In this document: positions 4,573-61,448 of the stretch, piece by piece | How the letters are laid out: each line of letters begins with the position of its first letter | Numbering within the stretch: the first letter of the stretch is position 1 | From: an uncultured delta proteobacterium | GTDB lineage: Bacteria > Desulfobacterota > Binatia > UBA9968 | Assembly: GCA_963771465.1 (NCBI GenBank) | Contig: CAVYTU010000012.1 | Location: 128,001-192,000, forward strand | Length of the DNA: 64,000 nt | Direction: 5' to 3' | Program-made: the position numbers and the translations under genes | The notes under the pieces: model-generated | Told to the model about the DNA's origin: nothing | The model's input: the letters and a program-made list of their open reading frames with translations, nothing else | Databases searched by the model: none

Positions 4573-5406
4573 ATGTTGCGAACGTGGCTGGCGGCGTGTG
4601 CCGTCGCCGTCGCTCTTTGCCTGGAGTTTGGGATTTCTCTGGCGGCCGAAGCTGAATCTCCTTTAGTTAACAATCCGAGGTGGCAACAGGCGCGTAAAGA
4701 TCTGGCCCAAGGCAAGGCGGGCGAGGCCAAGGCGGCTTTTGAGGAACTACTTAAGCAGCATCCCCATGACGCTGACCTGCAATTGTTCCTCGGCATGGCG
4801 CTGTTGCGGTTGCGCGATCCGCAGGCGGCGGTCTTGGCGATTAAGAAAGCCATTGGCATCGATCCGAACCATGTCGAAGCGCGAACGCTGCTGGGTTACG
4901 TCGAGCTGGAAATCCGCGGCGACGTGAACGCGGCGATCCGCGAGTATCAAAATGTTATCGAGCTCCAACCCGATCGCGCCGAGGCCTATAGCAATCTCGC
5001 GGTAGCGCAAAAGAAAAAAGGCGATCTCGAACAAGCGATCTTGAGCTTGAATAAGGCGCTGGAGCTGAAACCCGGCTTTGCCAACGCGCTGACGACGCGC
5101 GGCGGGATATTCGCGGATCAGAATAAGTGGTCCGAAGCGCGGCGCGATTTCGAAGCAGCGCTGAAACTCAATCCCAACGACGACGGCGCGCTCTATGGCT
5201 TGTCCCAGTCGCTCCGCGAAGCGCGTGACTACGGCGGCGCGCAGCGAGCCTTGAGTGAGCTGATTGCCCGTTCTCCCAATTTCGTCTATTGGCTGGAATG
5301 GGGTAGAATCGGCTTAATCCGATATTGGTGGGCGCTCCTCTTGATCGCCGTCGGGTGGGGGCTAAAAGGCCGGTTTATGAAAGCAAGGACGGAAGCAAAT
5401 GGCTGA
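4573..5406 (+). CDS. Tetratricopeptide repeat protein with signal peptide and C-terminal membrane anchor
   Basis: Several TPR units (AEAYSNLAVAQKKKGDLEQAILSLNKALELKP); hydrophobic N- and C-termini. Confidence 0.85.
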   Translation: MLRTWLAACAVAVALCLEFGISLAAEAESPLVNNPRWQQARKDLAQGKAGEAKAAFEELLKQHPHDADLQLFLGMALLRLRDPQAAVLAIKKAIGIDPNHVEARTLLGYVELEIRGDVNAAIREYQNVIELQPDRAEAYSNLAVAQKKKGDLEQAILSLNKALELKPGFANALTTRGGIFADQNKWSEARRDFEAALKLNPNDDGALYGLSQSLREARDYGGAQRALSELIARSPNFVYWLEWGRIGLIRYWWALLLIAVGWGLKGRFMKARTEANG

Positions 5407-5944
5407 AGCGAAGAAGCGCAAAGGTACGGCTCTGTTGGCCGTCATGAATGAAAATTGTTCGAGCTGCGCTGGTTCACCGATCTGCGAGCTGCATTGTCCA
5501 GTCGAGAACTGCATCAATCTACTCTACGAAGAAACCCCCGCCGGCGGACTAAAACCCTACCGCGTCTGGGTCGATAACGATAAATGCATCGGCTGCCAAA
5601 TGTGTTACAGCGATGATTTGACTAAGATCCATCGTCATAAAGAAACTGGCGAAATATTTCGCGAGTATGCGGGCCGATACTACGATAGTTCGAAAAGGCC
5701 GCTCGAAACCGAACAGGTACCCAAGAAATTTCAGCTGGAGCTGATTGGCACCGAATCCGAGGATCGCCTCGACAAGAAAATCTGTCCGTGGGACGCGATC
5801 AAGATGTATGAATTCGACGAGGGTGTCGAACTCTCGGAGTATTTTTACGACATTACCAAGATCAAAGAAGTCAACGGCGTTCACGTTGTCGATTCAAAAG
5901 AAAAAGCGCGCTTGGAAGACAAGCAAAGCGAGCTCTACGACTAG
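5399..5944 (+). CDS. 4Fe-4S dicluster ferredoxin-like protein with a long insertion
   Basis: CSSCAGSPICELHCP and CIGCQMC...(~60 aa)...KICPWDAI. Confidence 0.75.
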   Translation: MAEAKKRKGTALLAVMNENCSSCAGSPICELHCPVENCINLLYEETPAGGLKPYRVWVDNDKCIGCQMCYSDDLTKIHRHKETGEIFREYAGRYYDSSKRPLETEQVPKKFQLELIGTESEDRLDKKICPWDAIKMYEFDEGVELSEYFYDITKIKEVNGVHVVDSKEKARLEDKQSELYD

Positions 5945-6189
5945 GCCGGATTATTCGCGGTAAAAGTCCAATCGAGGTGTAACCCTTCCGGAACGAAAGC
6001 AAAGCAGTTGTGCCTTGAAGACGCCAGCGGGGCAAGTTGTTTATGAGATCAGCACCGAAAAGGTCAACCATCGTGCCGAGCGCCGAGCGCAAAATGACCA
6101 TTTGCGCCGGTGCCTTCGTTCCTCCAGGGTCACGCCTCGATTGACAGAGTGTCGTCAGGTTTCCTCGTAGCATTAATAATCCGGGCTAG
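5941..6189. mobile_element. Non-autonomous MITE-like structured repeat, copy A
   Basis: Terminal IR CTAGGCCGGATTATT / AATAATCCGGGCTAG (14 of 15 complementary); ~80% identity by eye to copies at 46552 and 60236. Confidence 0.75.
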
Positions 6190-6214: not shown

Positions 6215-7597
6215 ATGGCTGGAAAAATCGAAATCATGGAGACCGTGTTGCGCGACGCGCATCAGTGTTTGATCGCCACGCGTATGCGCACCGAAGACAT
6301 GCTGCCCATCGCCGCCACGCTCGACGAGGTCGGCTATTGGTCGCTGGAAACCTGGGGCGGCGCGACCTTCGATGCCACGTTGCGTTTTCTTAAAGAATGT
6401 CCGTGGGAGCGTCTGCGCAAACTGCGCGCGGCGATGCCCAAAACGCGCTTTCAGATGTTGCTGCGCGGTCAGAACGTGGTCGGTTATCGCAACTATCCCG
6501 ACGACGTTGTTCGAGCGTTCGTCGAGCGGGCCGGCGCCAATGGCATCGACGTGTTTCGTATTTTCGATGCCATGAACGATGTCCGCAATATGAAAACGGC
6601 CATCGAAGCCGGCCTAAAAGCCGGCAAGCTGGTCGAAGGGACGGTTTGTTACACGATCAGTCCGGTGCATTCACCGGATTATTTTTTGCGCGTGGCGGAA
6701 AAGCTCGCTGAGATGGGCGTGCAAATCATTTGCTTGAAAGACATGGGCGGGCTCTTGGCGCCCTACGCCGCCTACGAAATAATCAAGAAAATCAAATCGC
6801 GCATCGCCTTGCCGTTGCACCTGCATTCGCACTGCACGGCGGGCTTGGCGCAGATGACCTACATGATGGCGATCGAAGCGGGTGCGGATATTCTCGATAC
6901 GGCGATCTCACCTTTCTCTCAGGGAACTTCGCAGCCGGCGACTGAACAAATCGCCGCCGCGCTCAAAGGCACGCCGCACGATACCGGCTTGGACCTGGAC
7001 AAACTTGCCAAGATCGCCGAGTATTTTTATCGCATCCGGCCAAATTACACCGAGTTCGAAAGCCCGGTGAATAATCAAATCAAGACTGACGTGCTGATCT
7101 CGCAAATTCCCGGCGGCATGCTGTCCAACCTGGTCGCCCAACTGCGCCAACAGAAGGCGGAAGACAAGTTGGATTTAGTCTTGGCGGAGATGCCTCATGT
7201 GCGCAAAGACCTCGGCTATCCGCCGCTGGTCACGCCGACCAGCCAGATGGTTGGTGCGCAAGCCGCGCTCAACGTCATGACCGGCAAACGCTATTCCGTG
7301 GTCAACATGGAAACGCGCAATTACGTCATGGGTCTCTACGGCGAAGCGCCGGGACAAATCAGCGATGAAATGAAACAGAAAGTGCTCGGCAAGAAAGAAG
7401 CGATCACCTGCCGGCCCGCCGATCTCTTAAAGCCCGGTCTCGAACAGGCGCGCAAAGACTCCTACGGCCTGGCGCGCAGCGAAGAGGACGTGATCACCTA
7501 CGCGCTGTTTCCCGAGATCGCCAAGGATTTCTTCCAGTTTCGTGCTGCGCAGGGCGGGGAAAAGCCTCCGGCCGCCGGCAGTCAGCCGTCCGCTTAG
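6215..7597 (+). CDS. Pyruvate carboxylase subunit B / oxaloacetate decarboxylase alpha-type carboxyltransferase, lacking a biotinyl domain
   Basis: LRDAHQCLIATRM, WGGATFD, QMLLRGQNVVGY, KDMGGLL, HSH, PGGMLSN, YPPLVTPTSQ. Confidence 0.9.
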   Translation: MAGKIEIMETVLRDAHQCLIATRMRTEDMLPIAATLDEVGYWSLETWGGATFDATLRFLKECPWERLRKLRAAMPKTRFQMLLRGQNVVGYRNYPDDVVRAFVERAGANGIDVFRIFDAMNDVRNMKTAIEAGLKAGKLVEGTVCYTISPVHSPDYFLRVAEKLAEMGVQIICLKDMGGLLAPYAAYEIIKKIKSRIALPLHLHSHCTAGLAQMTYMMAIEAGADILDTAISPFSQGTSQPATEQIAAALKGTPHDTGLDLDKLAKIAEYFYRIRPNYTEFESPVNNQIKTDVLISQIPGGMLSNLVAQLRQQKAEDKLDLVLAEMPHVRKDLGYPPLVTPTSQMVGAQAALNVMTGKRYSVVNMETRNYVMGLYGEAPGQISDEMKQKVLGKKEAITCRPADLLKPGLEQARKDSYGLARSEEDVITYALFPEIAKDFFQFRAAQGGEKPPAAGSQPSA

Positions 7598-46551: not shown

Positions 46552-46803
46552 CTAGCCCGGAAGATTCGCGGTAAAACTGCGATCGGGGTGCAACCCTTCC
46601 GGAACGAAGGCAAAGCAGTCGTACTTTGAAAGTGCAGGCGACGAAAGTTGCTTTTGAGATCAGCAGTGAAAAGGTCAAACATCGTGTGCCGAGCGCCGAA
46701 CGCAGAACGAAACATTCGCGCCGGTGCCTTCGTCCCTCCAGGGTCACACCCCGATCAAGCGAGTGTCGTCACGTTTCCTCGGAGCATGAATAATTTGGGC
46801 GAG
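46552..46803. mobile_element. Non-autonomous MITE-like structured repeat, copy B (degenerate right end)
   Basis: CTAGCCCGGAAGATTC ... GAATAATTTGGGCGAG; homologous to copies A and C along its whole length. Confidence 0.75.
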
Positions 46804-60235: not shown

Positions 60236-60474
60236 CTAGCCTGGATAGTGAAACTGCGATCGAGGTGCAACCCTTACGGAACGAAGGCAAAGCATTGTGC
60301 CCTGAAGACGCGAGCGGGCAAGTTGCTTATGAGATCAGCAGCGAAAAGGTCAAACATCGTGCCGAGCGCCGAGCACAGAACGAACCATTCAGGCTGGTGC
60401 CTTTCGCTCCTCCAGGGTCACACCTCGATAAGAGTGTCGTCAAGTTTACTCCGAGCGTGAATATTCCGGGCTAG
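60236..60474. mobile_element. Non-autonomous MITE-like structured repeat, copy C
   Basis: CTAGCCTGGA ... GAATATTCCGGGCTAG; homologous to copies A and B. Confidence 0.75.
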
Positions 60475-61448
60475 CGGCCTAGGGATTTGAAAAATCCGCC
60501 GCTCTCCAGCTCGTTGTACAAACTAGCGTCGATGAACTCCTCGGCCTTTCGTCCCTTCGCTTTTGGATCGGTTTCTGCCGCTTGAGCCAAGATCATCTCG
60601 ATGGCTTTGTGGGGCAGCCGCGGCGGCCTTTCTATAAAGTTCGTTGCGTATTCGAAGGACGACTCCAGCGTCTCCCGGTCTTCAGTGCGCGTCCATTTGC
60701 CGATGATCTTGATGGCCAGCTCTTTATCGCGGAACAATCGATCCACCGCCTCGCTGTACGCCATGAGGAAACGCTTTACGGTGTCTCGATCCTTGTTGAT
60801 CATGGAACGGGTCGAAACGAGGCTTGTGGTCGGGTAATCGATGCCTTCTTTAGCGAAATTGGCGAGCAAGGCGAAGCCGGCTTTCTTGGCCTTAAAGTCA
60901 CCGGGCGAAGACAGAATTCCTCCCTGGACAACCCCGGCCTGCATCCCGGCAAGAATTTCCGGCTGTCCGCCCATTTGAATAATTTTTACATCGCGATCGG
61001 GTTCCAAGCGCCATTTTTTTAACAACAAGCGCAAAGAGCCATCCGTCGAGGCGCCGAAGCGGGTAATTCCCAAAGCTTTGCCTTTGAGGTCTTCTTGCTT
61101 TTTGATCGACGGTTGGACGAAGAGATAAAAGGACGGGACGTTGACTACGCCGCCGATGGTGACGATGTCGCCGCCGGCAAGATTGGCATAGACGATATTA
61201 CCGCCGGCTAGAGCCACGGCAAATTCTCCCGCGATCATCGCCTGGGCGACGCGACTGCCGCCGGCGACGTAAACCGGGTCGACGTAAAGCCCGTGTTTGT
61301 CAAAAATCTTGGTGTCCTTGGCGAGGTAAAAAGCGGACTGCGTCGCGCTGATCGCGCTGTAAGCGACGGCGATGCGCTTGGTTTGCGCGCGCGCCGGCGC
61401 CAATCCGAGCAGGATGAATAGGACTGCTAGCAGGACATGTTTCTTCAT
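60471..61448 (-). CDS. ABC substrate-binding protein, NMT1/SsuA-like
   Basis: Signal peptide, IFDKHGL, LKGKALGITRFGASTD; its TAG stop overlaps the element's CTAG. Confidence 0.85.
   Translation of the reverse strand: MKKHVLLAVLFILLGLAPARAQTKRIAVAYSAISATQSAFYLAKDTKIFDKHGLYVDPVYVAGGSRVAQAMIAGEFAVALAGGNIVYANLAGGDIVTIGGVVNVPSFYLFVQPSIKKQEDLKGKALGITRFGASTDGSLRLLLKKWRLEPDRDVKIIQMGGQPEILAGMQAGVVQGGILSSPGDFKAKKAGFALLANFAKEGIDYPTTSLVSTRSMINKDRDTVKRFLMAYSEAVDRLFRDKELAIKIIGKWTRTEDRETLESSFEYATNFIERPPRLPHKAIEMILAQAAETDPKAKGRKAEEFIDASLYNELESGGFFKSLGR

What the first reader, a model, noticed from the sequence alone, without database searches (positions are those of the whole stretch)
5941..6189. Unnamed ~250-bp structured mobile-like element in three copies with CTAG ends and a covarying long stem
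Seen: homologous copies at 5941-6189, 46552-46803 and 60236-60474, all in the same orientation, ~80% identical by eye. Ends form an imperfect IR of the type CTAGCCCGGA...TCCGGGCTAG. Inside is a nested long-range stem: ATCGAGGTG..ACCCT..GGAACGAAGGCA pairs with TGCCTTCGTTCC..AGGGT..CACCTCGAT. Copy B shows two compensatory changes (AATCGAGG/CCTCGATT in A becomes GATCGGGG/CCCCGATC). The ~110-nt interior has invariant blocks (TGAGATCAGCA, GAAAAGGTCAA, GCCGAGCGCCGA), and GAGTGTCGTCA is conserved outside the stem. No shared ORF. Established: C-TA-G junctions are typical of IS630/Tc1-type TA duplication and of MITEs such as Correia/RUP; IS5/IS701 elements can also duplicate CTAG. Inference: a non-autonomous element that may encode or carry a structured RNA. 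Three copies in 64 kb suggest many genome-wide. I do not recognise it as a described family.
Basis: partly seen in the sequence, partly recalled or inferred. Interest (0 to 1): 0.8.

Follow-up and report, generated by a model that had tools for sequence, protein, structure and literature searches.

The report
IS1380-type miniature transposon, replication-oriented
The three repeats are copies of a small non-coding jumping element that borrows the transposase of an IS1380-type insertion sequence, and it is unusual in keeping a strongly conserved hairpin core and in pointing almost always the same way relative to DNA replication.

Summary
In detail: three same-strand copies of about 250 bp, 84% column identity, with CTAG ends and a nested long stem.

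It is a MITE. The genome has 47 loci. A closely related genome has a base-precise empty site with a single CTAG, and the duplication is 4 bp. The terminal repeats and the duplication match a 1,657-bp IS1380-family insertion sequence found in relatives. A second subfamily matches a second IS1380 lineage with a 5-bp duplication. This genome encodes no such transposase, so its copies are old orphans.

Three features are not ordinary:
- The roughly 190-nt hairpin core is absent from the IS and is better conserved than the terminal repeats. It covaries, and its mismatches are wobble-compatible on the minus strand only.
- A covariance model finds the core in 59 of 89 genomes of the taxonomic family.
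- In this genus 69 of 73 copies have their plus strand on the G-rich, presumably leading, strand. Five genomes of other genera show no such bias.

An RNA role is possible but not shown.

The parts
5941..6189 (+). MITE copy A, full length (249 bp including both CTAG)
   Evidence: the orthologous site in G024 is empty, with one CTAG
5941..5944 (.). Left CTAG of the 4-bp target duplication of copy A; its TAG is the stop codon of ORF 5399..5944
5945..5960 (+). Left terminal inverted repeat of copy A (GCCGGATTATTCGCGG)
   Evidence: matches the ends of the IS1380-family IS in L111
5970..6001 (+). Left arm of the long stem of copy A (16-nt S1, 4-nt loop TTCC, 12-nt S2)
6002..6110 (+). Variable interior of copy A, replaced by unrelated sequence in other subfamilies
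6111..6142 (+). Right arm of the long stem of copy A (S2, loop TCCA, S1)
6143..6169 (+). Right-side tail of copy A (GACAGAGTGTCGTCAGG...). It makes the two ends asymmetric and holds the first hexamer of a promoter-like site that faces outward
6170..6185 (+). Right terminal inverted repeat of copy A
6186..6189 (.). Right CTAG of the target duplication of copy A
46552..46803 (+). MITE copy B (left CTAG 46552-46555; right end decayed to CGAG 46800-46803), lying between two minus-strand ORFs
   Evidence: the site has only 87-102 nt of other sequence in G003, G007 and G023
60236..60474 (+). MITE copy C (CTAG 60236-60239 and 60471-60474; 7-nt deletion in the left repeat). The right CTAG overlaps the stop codon of minus-strand ORF 60471..61448
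   Evidence: the site lacks the element in G024

Best explanation
The element is a miniature inverted-repeat transposable element (MITE) moved in trans by DDE transposases of the IS1380 family.

Shown:
- It has 16-19-bp terminal inverted repeats beginning CCCGGATT.
- It inserts at the rare palindrome CTAG and duplicates those 4 bp.
- An insertion sequence with the same ends and the same CTAG duplication exists in related genomes.
- A sister MITE subfamily carries the ends and the 5-bp duplication of a second IS1380 lineage.
- This genome has no such transposase. Its 47 loci are diverged orphans.

Inferred:
- The roughly 190-nt core between the terminal repeats is a 28-bp imperfect stem with a conserved 4x4 internal loop, closing a variable interior. 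It is not derived from the IS.
- Selection acts on the core as a folded single strand, and the relevant strand is the minus strand, whether as DNA or as RNA. Its pairing is kept by compensatory changes. Its tolerated mismatches are A.C on the plus strand, which read G.U or G.T on the minus strand.
- In this genus the element is inserted, or retained, almost only with its weaker-folding plus strand on the G-rich strand. That strand is the lagging-strand template at the fork.
- The most likely reading is therefore that hairpin formation at the replication fork, or a transposase-replisome contact, sets which orientation becomes established.

Where copies sit behind genes they are probably co-transcribed as 3' untranslated hairpins.
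For: Mobility:
- A precise empty site exists in G024 with a single CTAG, with flanks 94% and 87% identical. G007 also lacks the element there.
- By BLAST the element is in 12 of 24 same-genus genomes.
- G008 has 26+35 terminal-repeat matches, many at contig ends. Its copies are 94.6% identical at the median, against 63.6% in this genome.

Target duplication:
- 18 of 23 copies from relatives have identical 4-mers on both sides (17 CTAG, 1 ATAG).
- Two TTAG/TTAG pairs occur in this genome.

Partner IS:
- L111:1271-2927 (G018) is 1,657 bp, with ends CCCTAATTATTCATGG and CCATGAATAATCCGGG, flanked by CTAG on both sides.
- It carries a 445-aa ORF that matches PF13701 at E=1.5e-140.
- The ORF is 37-39% identical to plasmid genes annotated 'IS1380 family transposase'.
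- G012 has the same ends at five contig ends, and at one of them (L104) the 35 codons of the ORF that are assembled are 91% identical to the G018 transposase. G008 has a 78%-identical fragment.
- Only the 15-18-nt ends are shared between IS and MITE.

Second subfamily:
- Its flanks are the 5-mers TTCAA, TTCAT and CTGAA.
- Its repeat matches L116:1341-2886, another PF13701 IS, flanked by TTAAG on both sides.

Orphan status: there are 0 hits in this genome for PF13701, PF01609, PF13358 and PF13359, and none by tblastn.

Core:
- Arm identity is 0.87-0.96 against 0.73 for the terminal repeats.
- Over 81 distinct copies and 28 pairs, 89.5% of cells are paired. 18 pairs show changes on both sides, in 116 cells. 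0 of 500 shuffles reach this, and slid controls give at most 30 cells.
- There are 168 A.C/C.A cells against 32 G.T/T.G cells, or 57 against 27 without three hot columns.
- The minus strand folds better in 30 of 41 copies, by 5.7 kcal/mol on average.

Orientation:
- 45 of 47 loci in this genome agree with the sign of local GC skew.
- In six other genomes of the genus, 17 of 18 and 7 of 8 agree.
- Only 56% of long ORFs lie on the G-rich strand.
- Relative to the abutting gene the two orientations are about equal, 9 against 9 stop-codon overlaps.

Transcription: contigs from three RNA libraries of three studies, with 0 mismatches, span the gene-element junctions of copy A.
Against: - No autonomous partner is in this genome, so trans-mobilisation is inferred from relatives. 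No experiment shows that the IS1380 transposase acts on these ends.
- The orientation bias is not seen outside the genus. In G072, G079, G083, G120 and G121, 19 copies are concordant, 12 discordant and 9 ambiguous of 40. The bias is therefore not an intrinsic property of the shared core, or else 20-kb skew is unreliable in those assemblies.
- A published survey found no orientation bias for the IS1380 family (PMC3971601, passages read).
- For the IS itself, six ends gave 4 against 2 with weak skews, which is uninformative.
- The two strands differ in stability by only about 5% of the folding energy.
- In the smaller 30-copy set, one-sided changes in the RNAalifold-predicted pairs ran the other way, at 16 G.U against 10 A.C by my own tally from the pair-type table.
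- Copies are related, so the P values overstate.
- RNA-library contigs are unstranded and may derive from DNA.
- Covariation in an inverted repeat can also arise if both arms are binding sites for one protein.
Confidence: 0.8

Rival explanations
1. The core is a functional structured RNA carried by the MITE, either a small RNA or a cis-acting 3'-UTR element. It would be read from the minus strand of the reader's orientation and kept by selection in each copy.
For: - The core is more conserved than the terminal repeats.
- The stem covaries.
- Mismatches are G.U-compatible on the minus strand at 168 against 32, which runs against the direction expected from leading-strand mutation pressure (inference).
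- The internal loop is purine-rich (GGA opposite GGA) on the minus strand.
- The core is found in 59 of 89 genomes across 20 genera.
- All 35 near-full copies abut a gene's 3' end, and 0 of 35 lie between divergent genes.
- RNA-library contigs cover copy A.
Against: - There is no Rfam match.
- The interior is replaced wholesale between subfamilies, and RNAalifold predicts no consistent interior structure.
- There is no orientation preference relative to flanking genes (18 opposite, 11 same, 6 convergent).
- No conserved promoter or terminator is found. The only promoter-like hits are on the plus strand at the right end, in 2 of 3 window copies.
- Private variants are only mildly depleted in the arms, at 0.6 against 0.8-1.0 per site. 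Much of the conservation may therefore reflect constraint on the active master copies rather than on each resident copy.
- The RNA evidence is unstranded and comes from contigs only.
Confidence: 0.2
2. The two arms are subterminal double-stranded binding sites for the transposase. The layout would match piggyBac, which has a terminal repeat, unequal spacers and an internal repeat. On this view the 'stem' never needs to fold, and the covariation reflects co-evolution of two copies of one binding site.
For: - The layout is terminal repeat, 9-nt spacer on the left and 27-nt on the right in copy A, then a 32-nt internal inverted repeat.
- IS1380 transposases are used as the outgroup of piggyBac (PMC10813416, passages read). 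The piggyBac end architecture itself is recalled, not checked here.
- The arms are conserved in sequence, not only in complementarity.
Against: - The cognate ISs of both lineages lack these arms, so their transposases do not need them.
- The two arms differ consistently by a 4-nt block (TTCC against TCCA) and by transition mismatches, and these are conserved across subfamilies. That fits a folded internal loop better than two equal sites.
- The strand asymmetry of mismatches is unexplained by a double-stranded site.
Confidence: 0.2
3. The element moves as single-stranded DNA through a HUH/Y1 transposase, like IS200/IS605-derived elements or REPINs. That would directly explain the orientation bias relative to replication.
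For: - There is a near-absolute orientation bias in the genus. Published work describes such a bias as typical of IS200/IS605/IS607 (PMC3971601, passages).
- The whole element can fold into one long hairpin.
- This genome has two copies of a 282-aa ORF with a Y1_Tnp domain.
Against: - The element has terminal inverted repeats and a true target duplication, including non-CTAG pairs ATAG/ATAG and TTAG/TTAG. IS200/IS605 elements have neither (established knowledge).
- The ends and the duplication length match two IS1380 lineages.
- No similarity to the MITE exists around the Y1 genes, even at E<=10.
- Other genera show no bias.
Confidence: 0.05

Closest known systems
Bacterial MITEs that fold into long hairpins, such as Correia (NEMIS/CREE) elements of Neisseria and ERIC/IRU of enterobacteria (features recalled, not checked here)
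   Same: These elements are 100-250 bp, non-coding, with terminal inverted repeats and a short target duplication. They are present in tens to hundreds of copies, mostly intergenic and next to gene ends, and are co-transcribed with neighbours as hairpin RNA.
   Different: - The ends and the 4-5-bp duplication here are those of IS1380-family elements.
- The target is CTAG rather than TA.
- A core not derived from the IS is conserved more strongly than the ends.
- The same core occurs with two different sets of terminal repeats.
- There is a strong orientation bias relative to replication in one genus.
IS1380 family insertion sequences, for example IS1247 (1672 bp, IR 16/13, DR 5; PMC3281130 Table 2, passage read)
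   Same: - The partner ISs are 1,657 and 1,546 bp, with a single PF13701 transposase.
- Their terminal repeats begin CCC.
- Their duplications are 4 and 5 bp.
   Different: - The element in the window has no transposase and shares only 15-18 nt at each end with the IS.
- A survey found no orientation bias for this family (PMC3971601).
- One literature search on IS1380 with MITE gave 21 papers. None of the 15 listed titles or abstract starts describes such a MITE family.
piggyBac transposon ends (recalled: terminal repeat, asymmetric spacer, internal repeat, 4-bp palindromic TTAA target)
   Same: - piggyBac is a relative of IS1380.
- Its ends begin CCC.
- Its target is a 4-bp palindrome, duplicated on insertion.
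- It has a terminal plus an internal inverted repeat with unequal spacers.
   Different: - The internal repeat here is 32 nt with a conserved internal-loop mismatch, and it is absent from the cognate bacterial IS.
- The target is CTAG, not TTAA.
IS200/IS605 elements and their miniature derivatives, and REPINs
   Same: They have hairpin-forming ends and an orientation tied to the replication fork.
   Different: Those elements have no terminal inverted repeats and no target duplication, and they use a Y1 transposase. This element fails those criteria.

Membership tests
MITE (miniature inverted-repeat transposable element) | Short (under about 300 bp) with no coding capacity | tested here: met
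   Copies are 239-252 bp. The longest ATG-ORFs in 30 copies run from 6 to 71 aa in differing frames.
MITE (miniature inverted-repeat transposable element) | Terminal inverted repeats | tested here: met
   CCCGGATTATTCG... pairs with ...GAATAATCCGGG over 16-19 bp.
MITE (miniature inverted-repeat transposable element) | Target-site duplication and empty sites | tested here: met
   G024 has a single CTAG at the empty site. 18 of 23 copies have identical flanking 4-mers.
MITE (miniature inverted-repeat transposable element) | Multiple dispersed copies with presence/absence differences between relatives | tested here: met
   There are 47 loci in this genome. The element is in 12 of 24 same-genus genomes by BLAST and 59 of 89 family genomes by covariance model. 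These tallies include the unpublished genomes G005 and G093.
MITE (miniature inverted-repeat transposable element) | An autonomous element with the same ends | tested here: met
   The partner was found in relatives only: L111 (G018), contig ends in G012, and L116 (G006) for the second subfamily. It was not found in this genome.
IS1380 family (for the partner IS) | DDE transposase of the DDE_Tnp_1_4 type, about 1.5-1.7 kb, 4-5-bp duplication | tested here: met
   PF13701 matches at E=1.5e-140. The ISs are 1,657 and 1,546 bp, with CTAG and TTAAG duplications. Plasmid homologues are annotated as IS1380 family.
   The first base of the 4-mer is duplicated too (ATAG/ATAG, TTAG/TTAG). PF13358 has 0 hits in this genome.
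   PF01609 has 0 hits in this genome. None of the 12 PF01609 loci fetched from relatives carries the ends. The search listed well over 100 further matches, and only these 12 were examined.
Any Rfam RNA family | Score at or above the family's gathering threshold | tested here: not met
   The 64-kb window gives 0 matches at gathering thresholds. The best hit at E<=10 is a chance microRNA match at E=6.5.
IS200/IS605-type single-strand elements, PATEs, REPINs | No terminal inverted repeats, no duplication, association with a Y1 transposase | tested here: not met
   Terminal repeats and a duplication are present. The two Y1_Tnp loci show no similarity to the element.
Structured non-coding RNA (generic) | Covariation beyond what an inverted DNA repeat gives, and a discrete transcript | tested here: inconclusive
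   The stem covaries and the mismatch asymmetry favours the minus strand. The interior has no consistent structure. Only unstranded RNA-library contigs were available.

The most novel reading that the evidence does not exclude
The conserved hairpin core is a strand-specific single-stranded module riding on IS1380 ends. It would be either a folded DNA signal read at the replication fork or a minus-strand RNA. It determines in which orientation, relative to replication, a DDE-type miniature transposon can insert or survive. That behaviour is so far tied to single-strand (HUH) transposons and Tn7. The same core has been fitted with the ends of two different IS1380 transposases and has spread through at least 20 genera of an uncultured soil deltaproteobacterial family.
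Probability: 0.3. Interest if true: 0.8.

Novelty: new variant of a known kind. Interest (0 to 1): 0.6.

Why it matters
MITEs are common, so a new family in uncultured soil bacteria would by itself be routine annotation. This one matters more for three reasons.

- It gives a clean natural pairing of miniature elements with IS1380-family transposases, the bacterial relatives of piggyBac. The pairing includes a CTAG-specific lineage.
- Its most conserved part is a hairpin core that the transposase's own IS lacks. Something other than end recognition is therefore under selection, across 20 genera.
- In one genus, 69 of 73 copies point the same way relative to replication, including a recent burst, while the flanking genes do not predict the orientation. 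For a cut-and-paste DDE element this is unexpected. It offers a testable system for how replication forks, hairpin-forming DNA and transposition interact.

In practice the element also breaks assemblies in relatives and supplies TAG-adjacent 3' hairpins to dozens of genes.

Tried and rejected
Partner searches that failed or were superseded:
- IS630, IS4/IS5 and Harbinger partners: PF13358, PF01609 and PF13359 have no hit in this genome.
- 12 PF01609 loci from relatives lack the ends.
- Pairs of terminal repeats 1-3 kb apart in this genome: none. Only solo remnants were found.
- G008:C22, where two right-end fragments lie 4.9 kb apart: the interior holds a response regulator, a histidine kinase and three ORFs without family, and no transposase.
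- End-only BLAST hits in G008 and G046 turned out to be a diverged MITE subfamily.

Other negative or uninformative results:
- Coding potential: rejected.
- A skewed-oligomer (KOPS- or Chi-like) explanation of the orientation bias: the most skewed 8-mers in the genome reach only 0.75, and the element carries none consistently.
- Base-precise empty sites for copies B and C: the element is absent in G003, G007, G023 and G024, but the intergenic DNA is too diverged to align. No orthologous filled site was found, so post-insertion substitution rates could not be measured.
- Orientation of the IS itself: six ends gave 4 against 2 with weak skew, which is uninformative.
- Antisense complementarity between the MITE and the IS: nothing beyond the ends and one 12-nt match.
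- Interior RNA structure: RNAalifold gives different, weak solutions on the two strands.
- RNA libraries: contigs cover copy A, but they cannot show strand, ends or level.
- ISfinder was not available.
- The supplementary tables of PMC3971601, which hold the beta-clamp motif lists, were not read.
Full report
**1. The observation**

Aligned with 20-bp flanks they share 84% of columns, and similarity ends exactly at the stated borders. Copies A and C begin and end with CTAG. Copy B ends with CGAG. The terminal inverted repeat, the nested long stem and the two compensatory changes in copy B are all present. Copy A folds far better than shuffled sequence on either strand (z -5.9 and -6.5). There is no conserved reading frame: in 30 copies the longest ATG-ORFs range from 6 to 71 aa in different frames.

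**2. A repeat family**

BLAST finds 40 matches in the 6.9-Mb, 19-contig genome that holds the window. Two rounds of nhmmer give 35 near-full copies (E<1e-45), several internally deleted copies, and a second, more distant subfamily of about eight copies with the same layout. In all there are 47 distinct loci at E<1e-5.

Conservation is uneven. The stem arms are 87-96% identical across 30 copies, the interior 73-86%, the terminal repeats about 73%, and the right-hand tail 64-74%. Copies in this genome are old, with median pairwise identity 63.6% and nearest-neighbour identity 75%.

**3. Mobility and target**

A 1.25-kb query spanning copy A and both flanks matches G024 as two blocks, 94% and 87% identical. 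The blocks abut at one CTAG, and the 245 bp between the duplicated CTAGs are missing. G007 is also empty at this site. Sites B and C lack the element in G003, G007 and G023, and in G024 respectively, but the intergenic DNA there is too diverged for a base-precise statement.

In copies from relatives, 18 of 23 have the same 4-mer on both sides: 17 CTAG and 1 ATAG. Sequence beyond the 4-mer is unrelated. In this genome the ends are decayed. Of 22 copies in which both repeat cores could be found, 7 have identical 4-mers (5 CTAG, 2 TTAG). The duplication is therefore 4 bp, not TA.

CTAG occurs at 0.25 of its expected frequency in this genome. In about half of the 35 near-full copies one CTAG overlaps the TAG stop codon of the adjoining ORF (crude ORF calls).

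**4. The partner**

This genome has no hit to PF13358 (IS630), PF01609 (IS4/IS5), PF13359 (Harbinger-like) or PF13701 (IS1380).

The terminal-repeat motif is common in the genus. In G012 it sits at contig ends and is followed by a start of a reading frame. PF13701 searches then found, in G018, a 1,657-bp element (L111:1271-2927). Its ends are CCCTAATTATTCATGG and CCATGAATAATCCGGG, it is flanked by CTAG on both sides, and it carries a 445-aa transposase (E=1.5e-140). That protein is 37-39% identical to plasmid genes annotated 'IS1380 family transposase'. At the G012 contig end L104, the 35 codons of the ORF that are assembled are 91% identical to the G018 transposase, and G008 has a 78%-identical fragment. 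The protein has no tblastn hit in this genome. MITE and IS share only the 15-18 terminal nucleotides.

The second MITE subfamily has 5-bp flanking repeats (TTCAA, TTCAT, CTGAA). Its terminal repeat matches a second IS1380 lineage, about 25% identical in protein. One member, L116:1341-2886, is flanked by TTAAG on both sides. Thus both the repeat sequence and the duplication length agree for two separate MITE-IS pairs.

IS1247, an IS1380-family member, is listed as 1672 bp, IR 16/13, DR 5 (PMC3281130, Table 2 passage).

G008 shows a recent burst. It has 26+35 repeat matches, many at contig ends, and a median copy identity of 94.6%.

**5. Spread**

A 22-nt arm pattern occurs in only 26 stretches among species representatives of 185,579 species, and these come from a handful of MAGs. 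The MAGs are labelled Deltaproteobacteria or Syntrophobacter, with one labelled Streptomycetaceae.

A covariance model of the 190-nt core (R1, from 81 distinct copies) matches 59 of 89 other genomes of the same taxonomic family, in 20 genera. It matches 0 of 33 genomes in two sister families. These tallies include the unpublished genomes G005 and G093, but no conclusion rests on them alone. Copies from other genera have the same layout and polarity.

**6. The core**

On 81 copies the 28-pair stem is 89.5% paired. 18 pairs show changes on both sides, in 116 cells. None of 500 shuffles reaches this, and slid controls give at most 30 such cells. Between subfamilies GGAACGAAGGCA/TGCCTTCGTTCC becomes GTAGTGAAGACA/TGTCTTCACTAC, which is four compensatory pairs.

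Covariation in an inverted repeat does not by itself prove RNA. Two further facts argue for a folded single strand.

First, the cognate ISs lack the arms, so end recognition by the transposase does not require them.

Second, the non-Watson-Crick cells are strongly one-sided. There are 168 A.C/C.A cells against 32 G.T/T.G cells on the + strand, or 57 against 27 when the three most affected columns are left out. So it is the - strand that keeps wobble pairing. The - strand folds more stably in 30 of 41 copies, by 5.7 kcal/mol on average. The conserved 4x4 internal loop reads GGA opposite GGA on the - strand.

Three points count against this. In the smaller 30-copy alignment, one-sided changes in the RNAalifold-predicted pairs ran 16 G.U to 10 A.C, by my own tally from the pair-type table. 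The copies are related. The interior has no consistent predicted structure and is replaced in other subfamilies.

**7. Orientation**

Relative to flanking ORFs the 35 near-full copies fall into 18 with both neighbours on the opposite strand, 11 with both on the same strand, 6 between convergent ORFs and 0 between divergent ORFs. Transcription of neighbours therefore does not set the orientation, and promoter regions are avoided.

Relative to GC skew the picture is different. 45 of 47 loci, including fragments and the second subfamily, have the element's + strand on the locally G-rich strand (binomial P=1.6e-11). Only 56% of long ORFs lie on that strand. No strongly skewed 8-mer lies in the element.

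In six other genomes of the genus, 17 of 18 full-length copies with |skew| of at least 0.01 agree, and 7 of 8 more agree. These include the recent G008 burst.

In five genomes of four other genera the result is 19 concordant, 12 discordant and 9 ambiguous of 40. The bias is therefore specific to the genus, or local skew is a poor guide in those assemblies.

A published survey reports orientation bias for IS200, IS605, IS607, IS91 and ISL3 but not for IS1380. It also reports that an IS1380 transposase peptide binds the beta clamp (PMC3971601, passages read; its supplements were not seen).

**8. Reading**

The firm part is that this is an IS1380-mobilised MITE family, orphaned in this genome.

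The inferred part concerns the core and the bias. Taking the G-rich strand as the leading strand (established for most bacteria, and supported here only by the 56% gene bias), the parental + strand is the lagging-strand template. It is the weaker-folding strand. This fits either orientation-dependent loss of copies whose stronger hairpin would form on the exposed template, or insertion coupled to the fork. The recent burst in G008 shows that the bias is set at insertion or soon after.

A Y1/HUH mechanism would explain the bias. It is contradicted by the terminal repeats, by the true duplications and by the absence of any link to the two Y1_Tnp genes.

**9. RNA**

Rfam has no match. Contigs from three metatranscriptomic libraries of three studies, identical to the window, run from the upstream ORF into copy A and from copy A into the downstream spacer. 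This is a weak hint of co-transcription. The contigs are unstranded and DNA carry-over cannot be excluded.

A promoter-like site (TCGTCA, 17 nt, AATAAT) faces outward at the right end of copies A and B but not of C.

**10. Verdict**

The mobile-element interpretation is right, but the family assignment is corrected to IS1380 with a 4-bp CTAG duplication. The structured-RNA idea remains open and, if true, concerns the opposite strand.

The element is a new variant of a known kind. The replication-linked orientation and the non-IS core conserved across genera are the parts worth following up.

Noticed in passing
G000:C5:99486-99511 (outside the window): A 26-nt sequence sits directly after a TAG stop codon. 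It consists of a left terminal-repeat-like half joined to a right-end half and closed by CTAG. It may be an extreme internal deletion or a remnant of the element.
   Followed up: no
L009:1539-1739, L024:1523-1714, L030:1523-1722, L144:131-335 and copies from relatives (L036, L049, L057, L061): A subset of copies carries a 12-nt insertion (CGACGTTTTGGT-like) inside the right arm, together with CTCCAGGG changed to TTTGGGG. It occurs in several genomes and subfamilies, so it is an old alternative form of the stem.
   Followed up: partly
L176:1418-2291 and L177:1418-2291 (G000 contigs C3 and C17): Two 99.8%-identical 874-bp repeats each carry a 282-aa ORF with a Y1_Tnp (PF01797) domain. They show no similarity to the MITE.
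   Followed up: partly
L098:1019-5983 (G008:C22): Two right-end fragments of the element in inverted orientation lie 4.9 kb apart. They bracket a response regulator, a histidine kinase and three ORFs without family. This could be a composite arrangement or two independent remnants.
   Followed up: partly
G000 contig C14 near 600 kb (outside the window): GC skew changes sign cleanly from about -0.03 to +0.03, marking a likely origin or terminus of replication.
   Followed up: no
window 6152-6180 and 46766-46794: A sigma-70-like site (TCGTCA, 17 nt, AATAAT) lies at the right end of copies A and B, facing outward. In copy A it lies just upstream of the ATG at 6216 of the next + strand ORF. It is absent from copy C.
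   Followed up: partly
L055 (record CAZFRR010000088.1): The best-scoring copy outside the window's genome lies on a contig of a MAG labelled Streptomycetaceae, while all other carriers are labelled Deltaproteobacteria or Syntrophobacter. The contig is probably mis-binned.
   Followed up: no
whole genome G000: CTAG occurs 6,518 times against 26,285 expected from base composition (ratio 0.25). It is the rarest of the 16 palindromic tetranucleotides counted, so the element's target is scarce and often coincides with TAG stop codons.
   Followed up: partly
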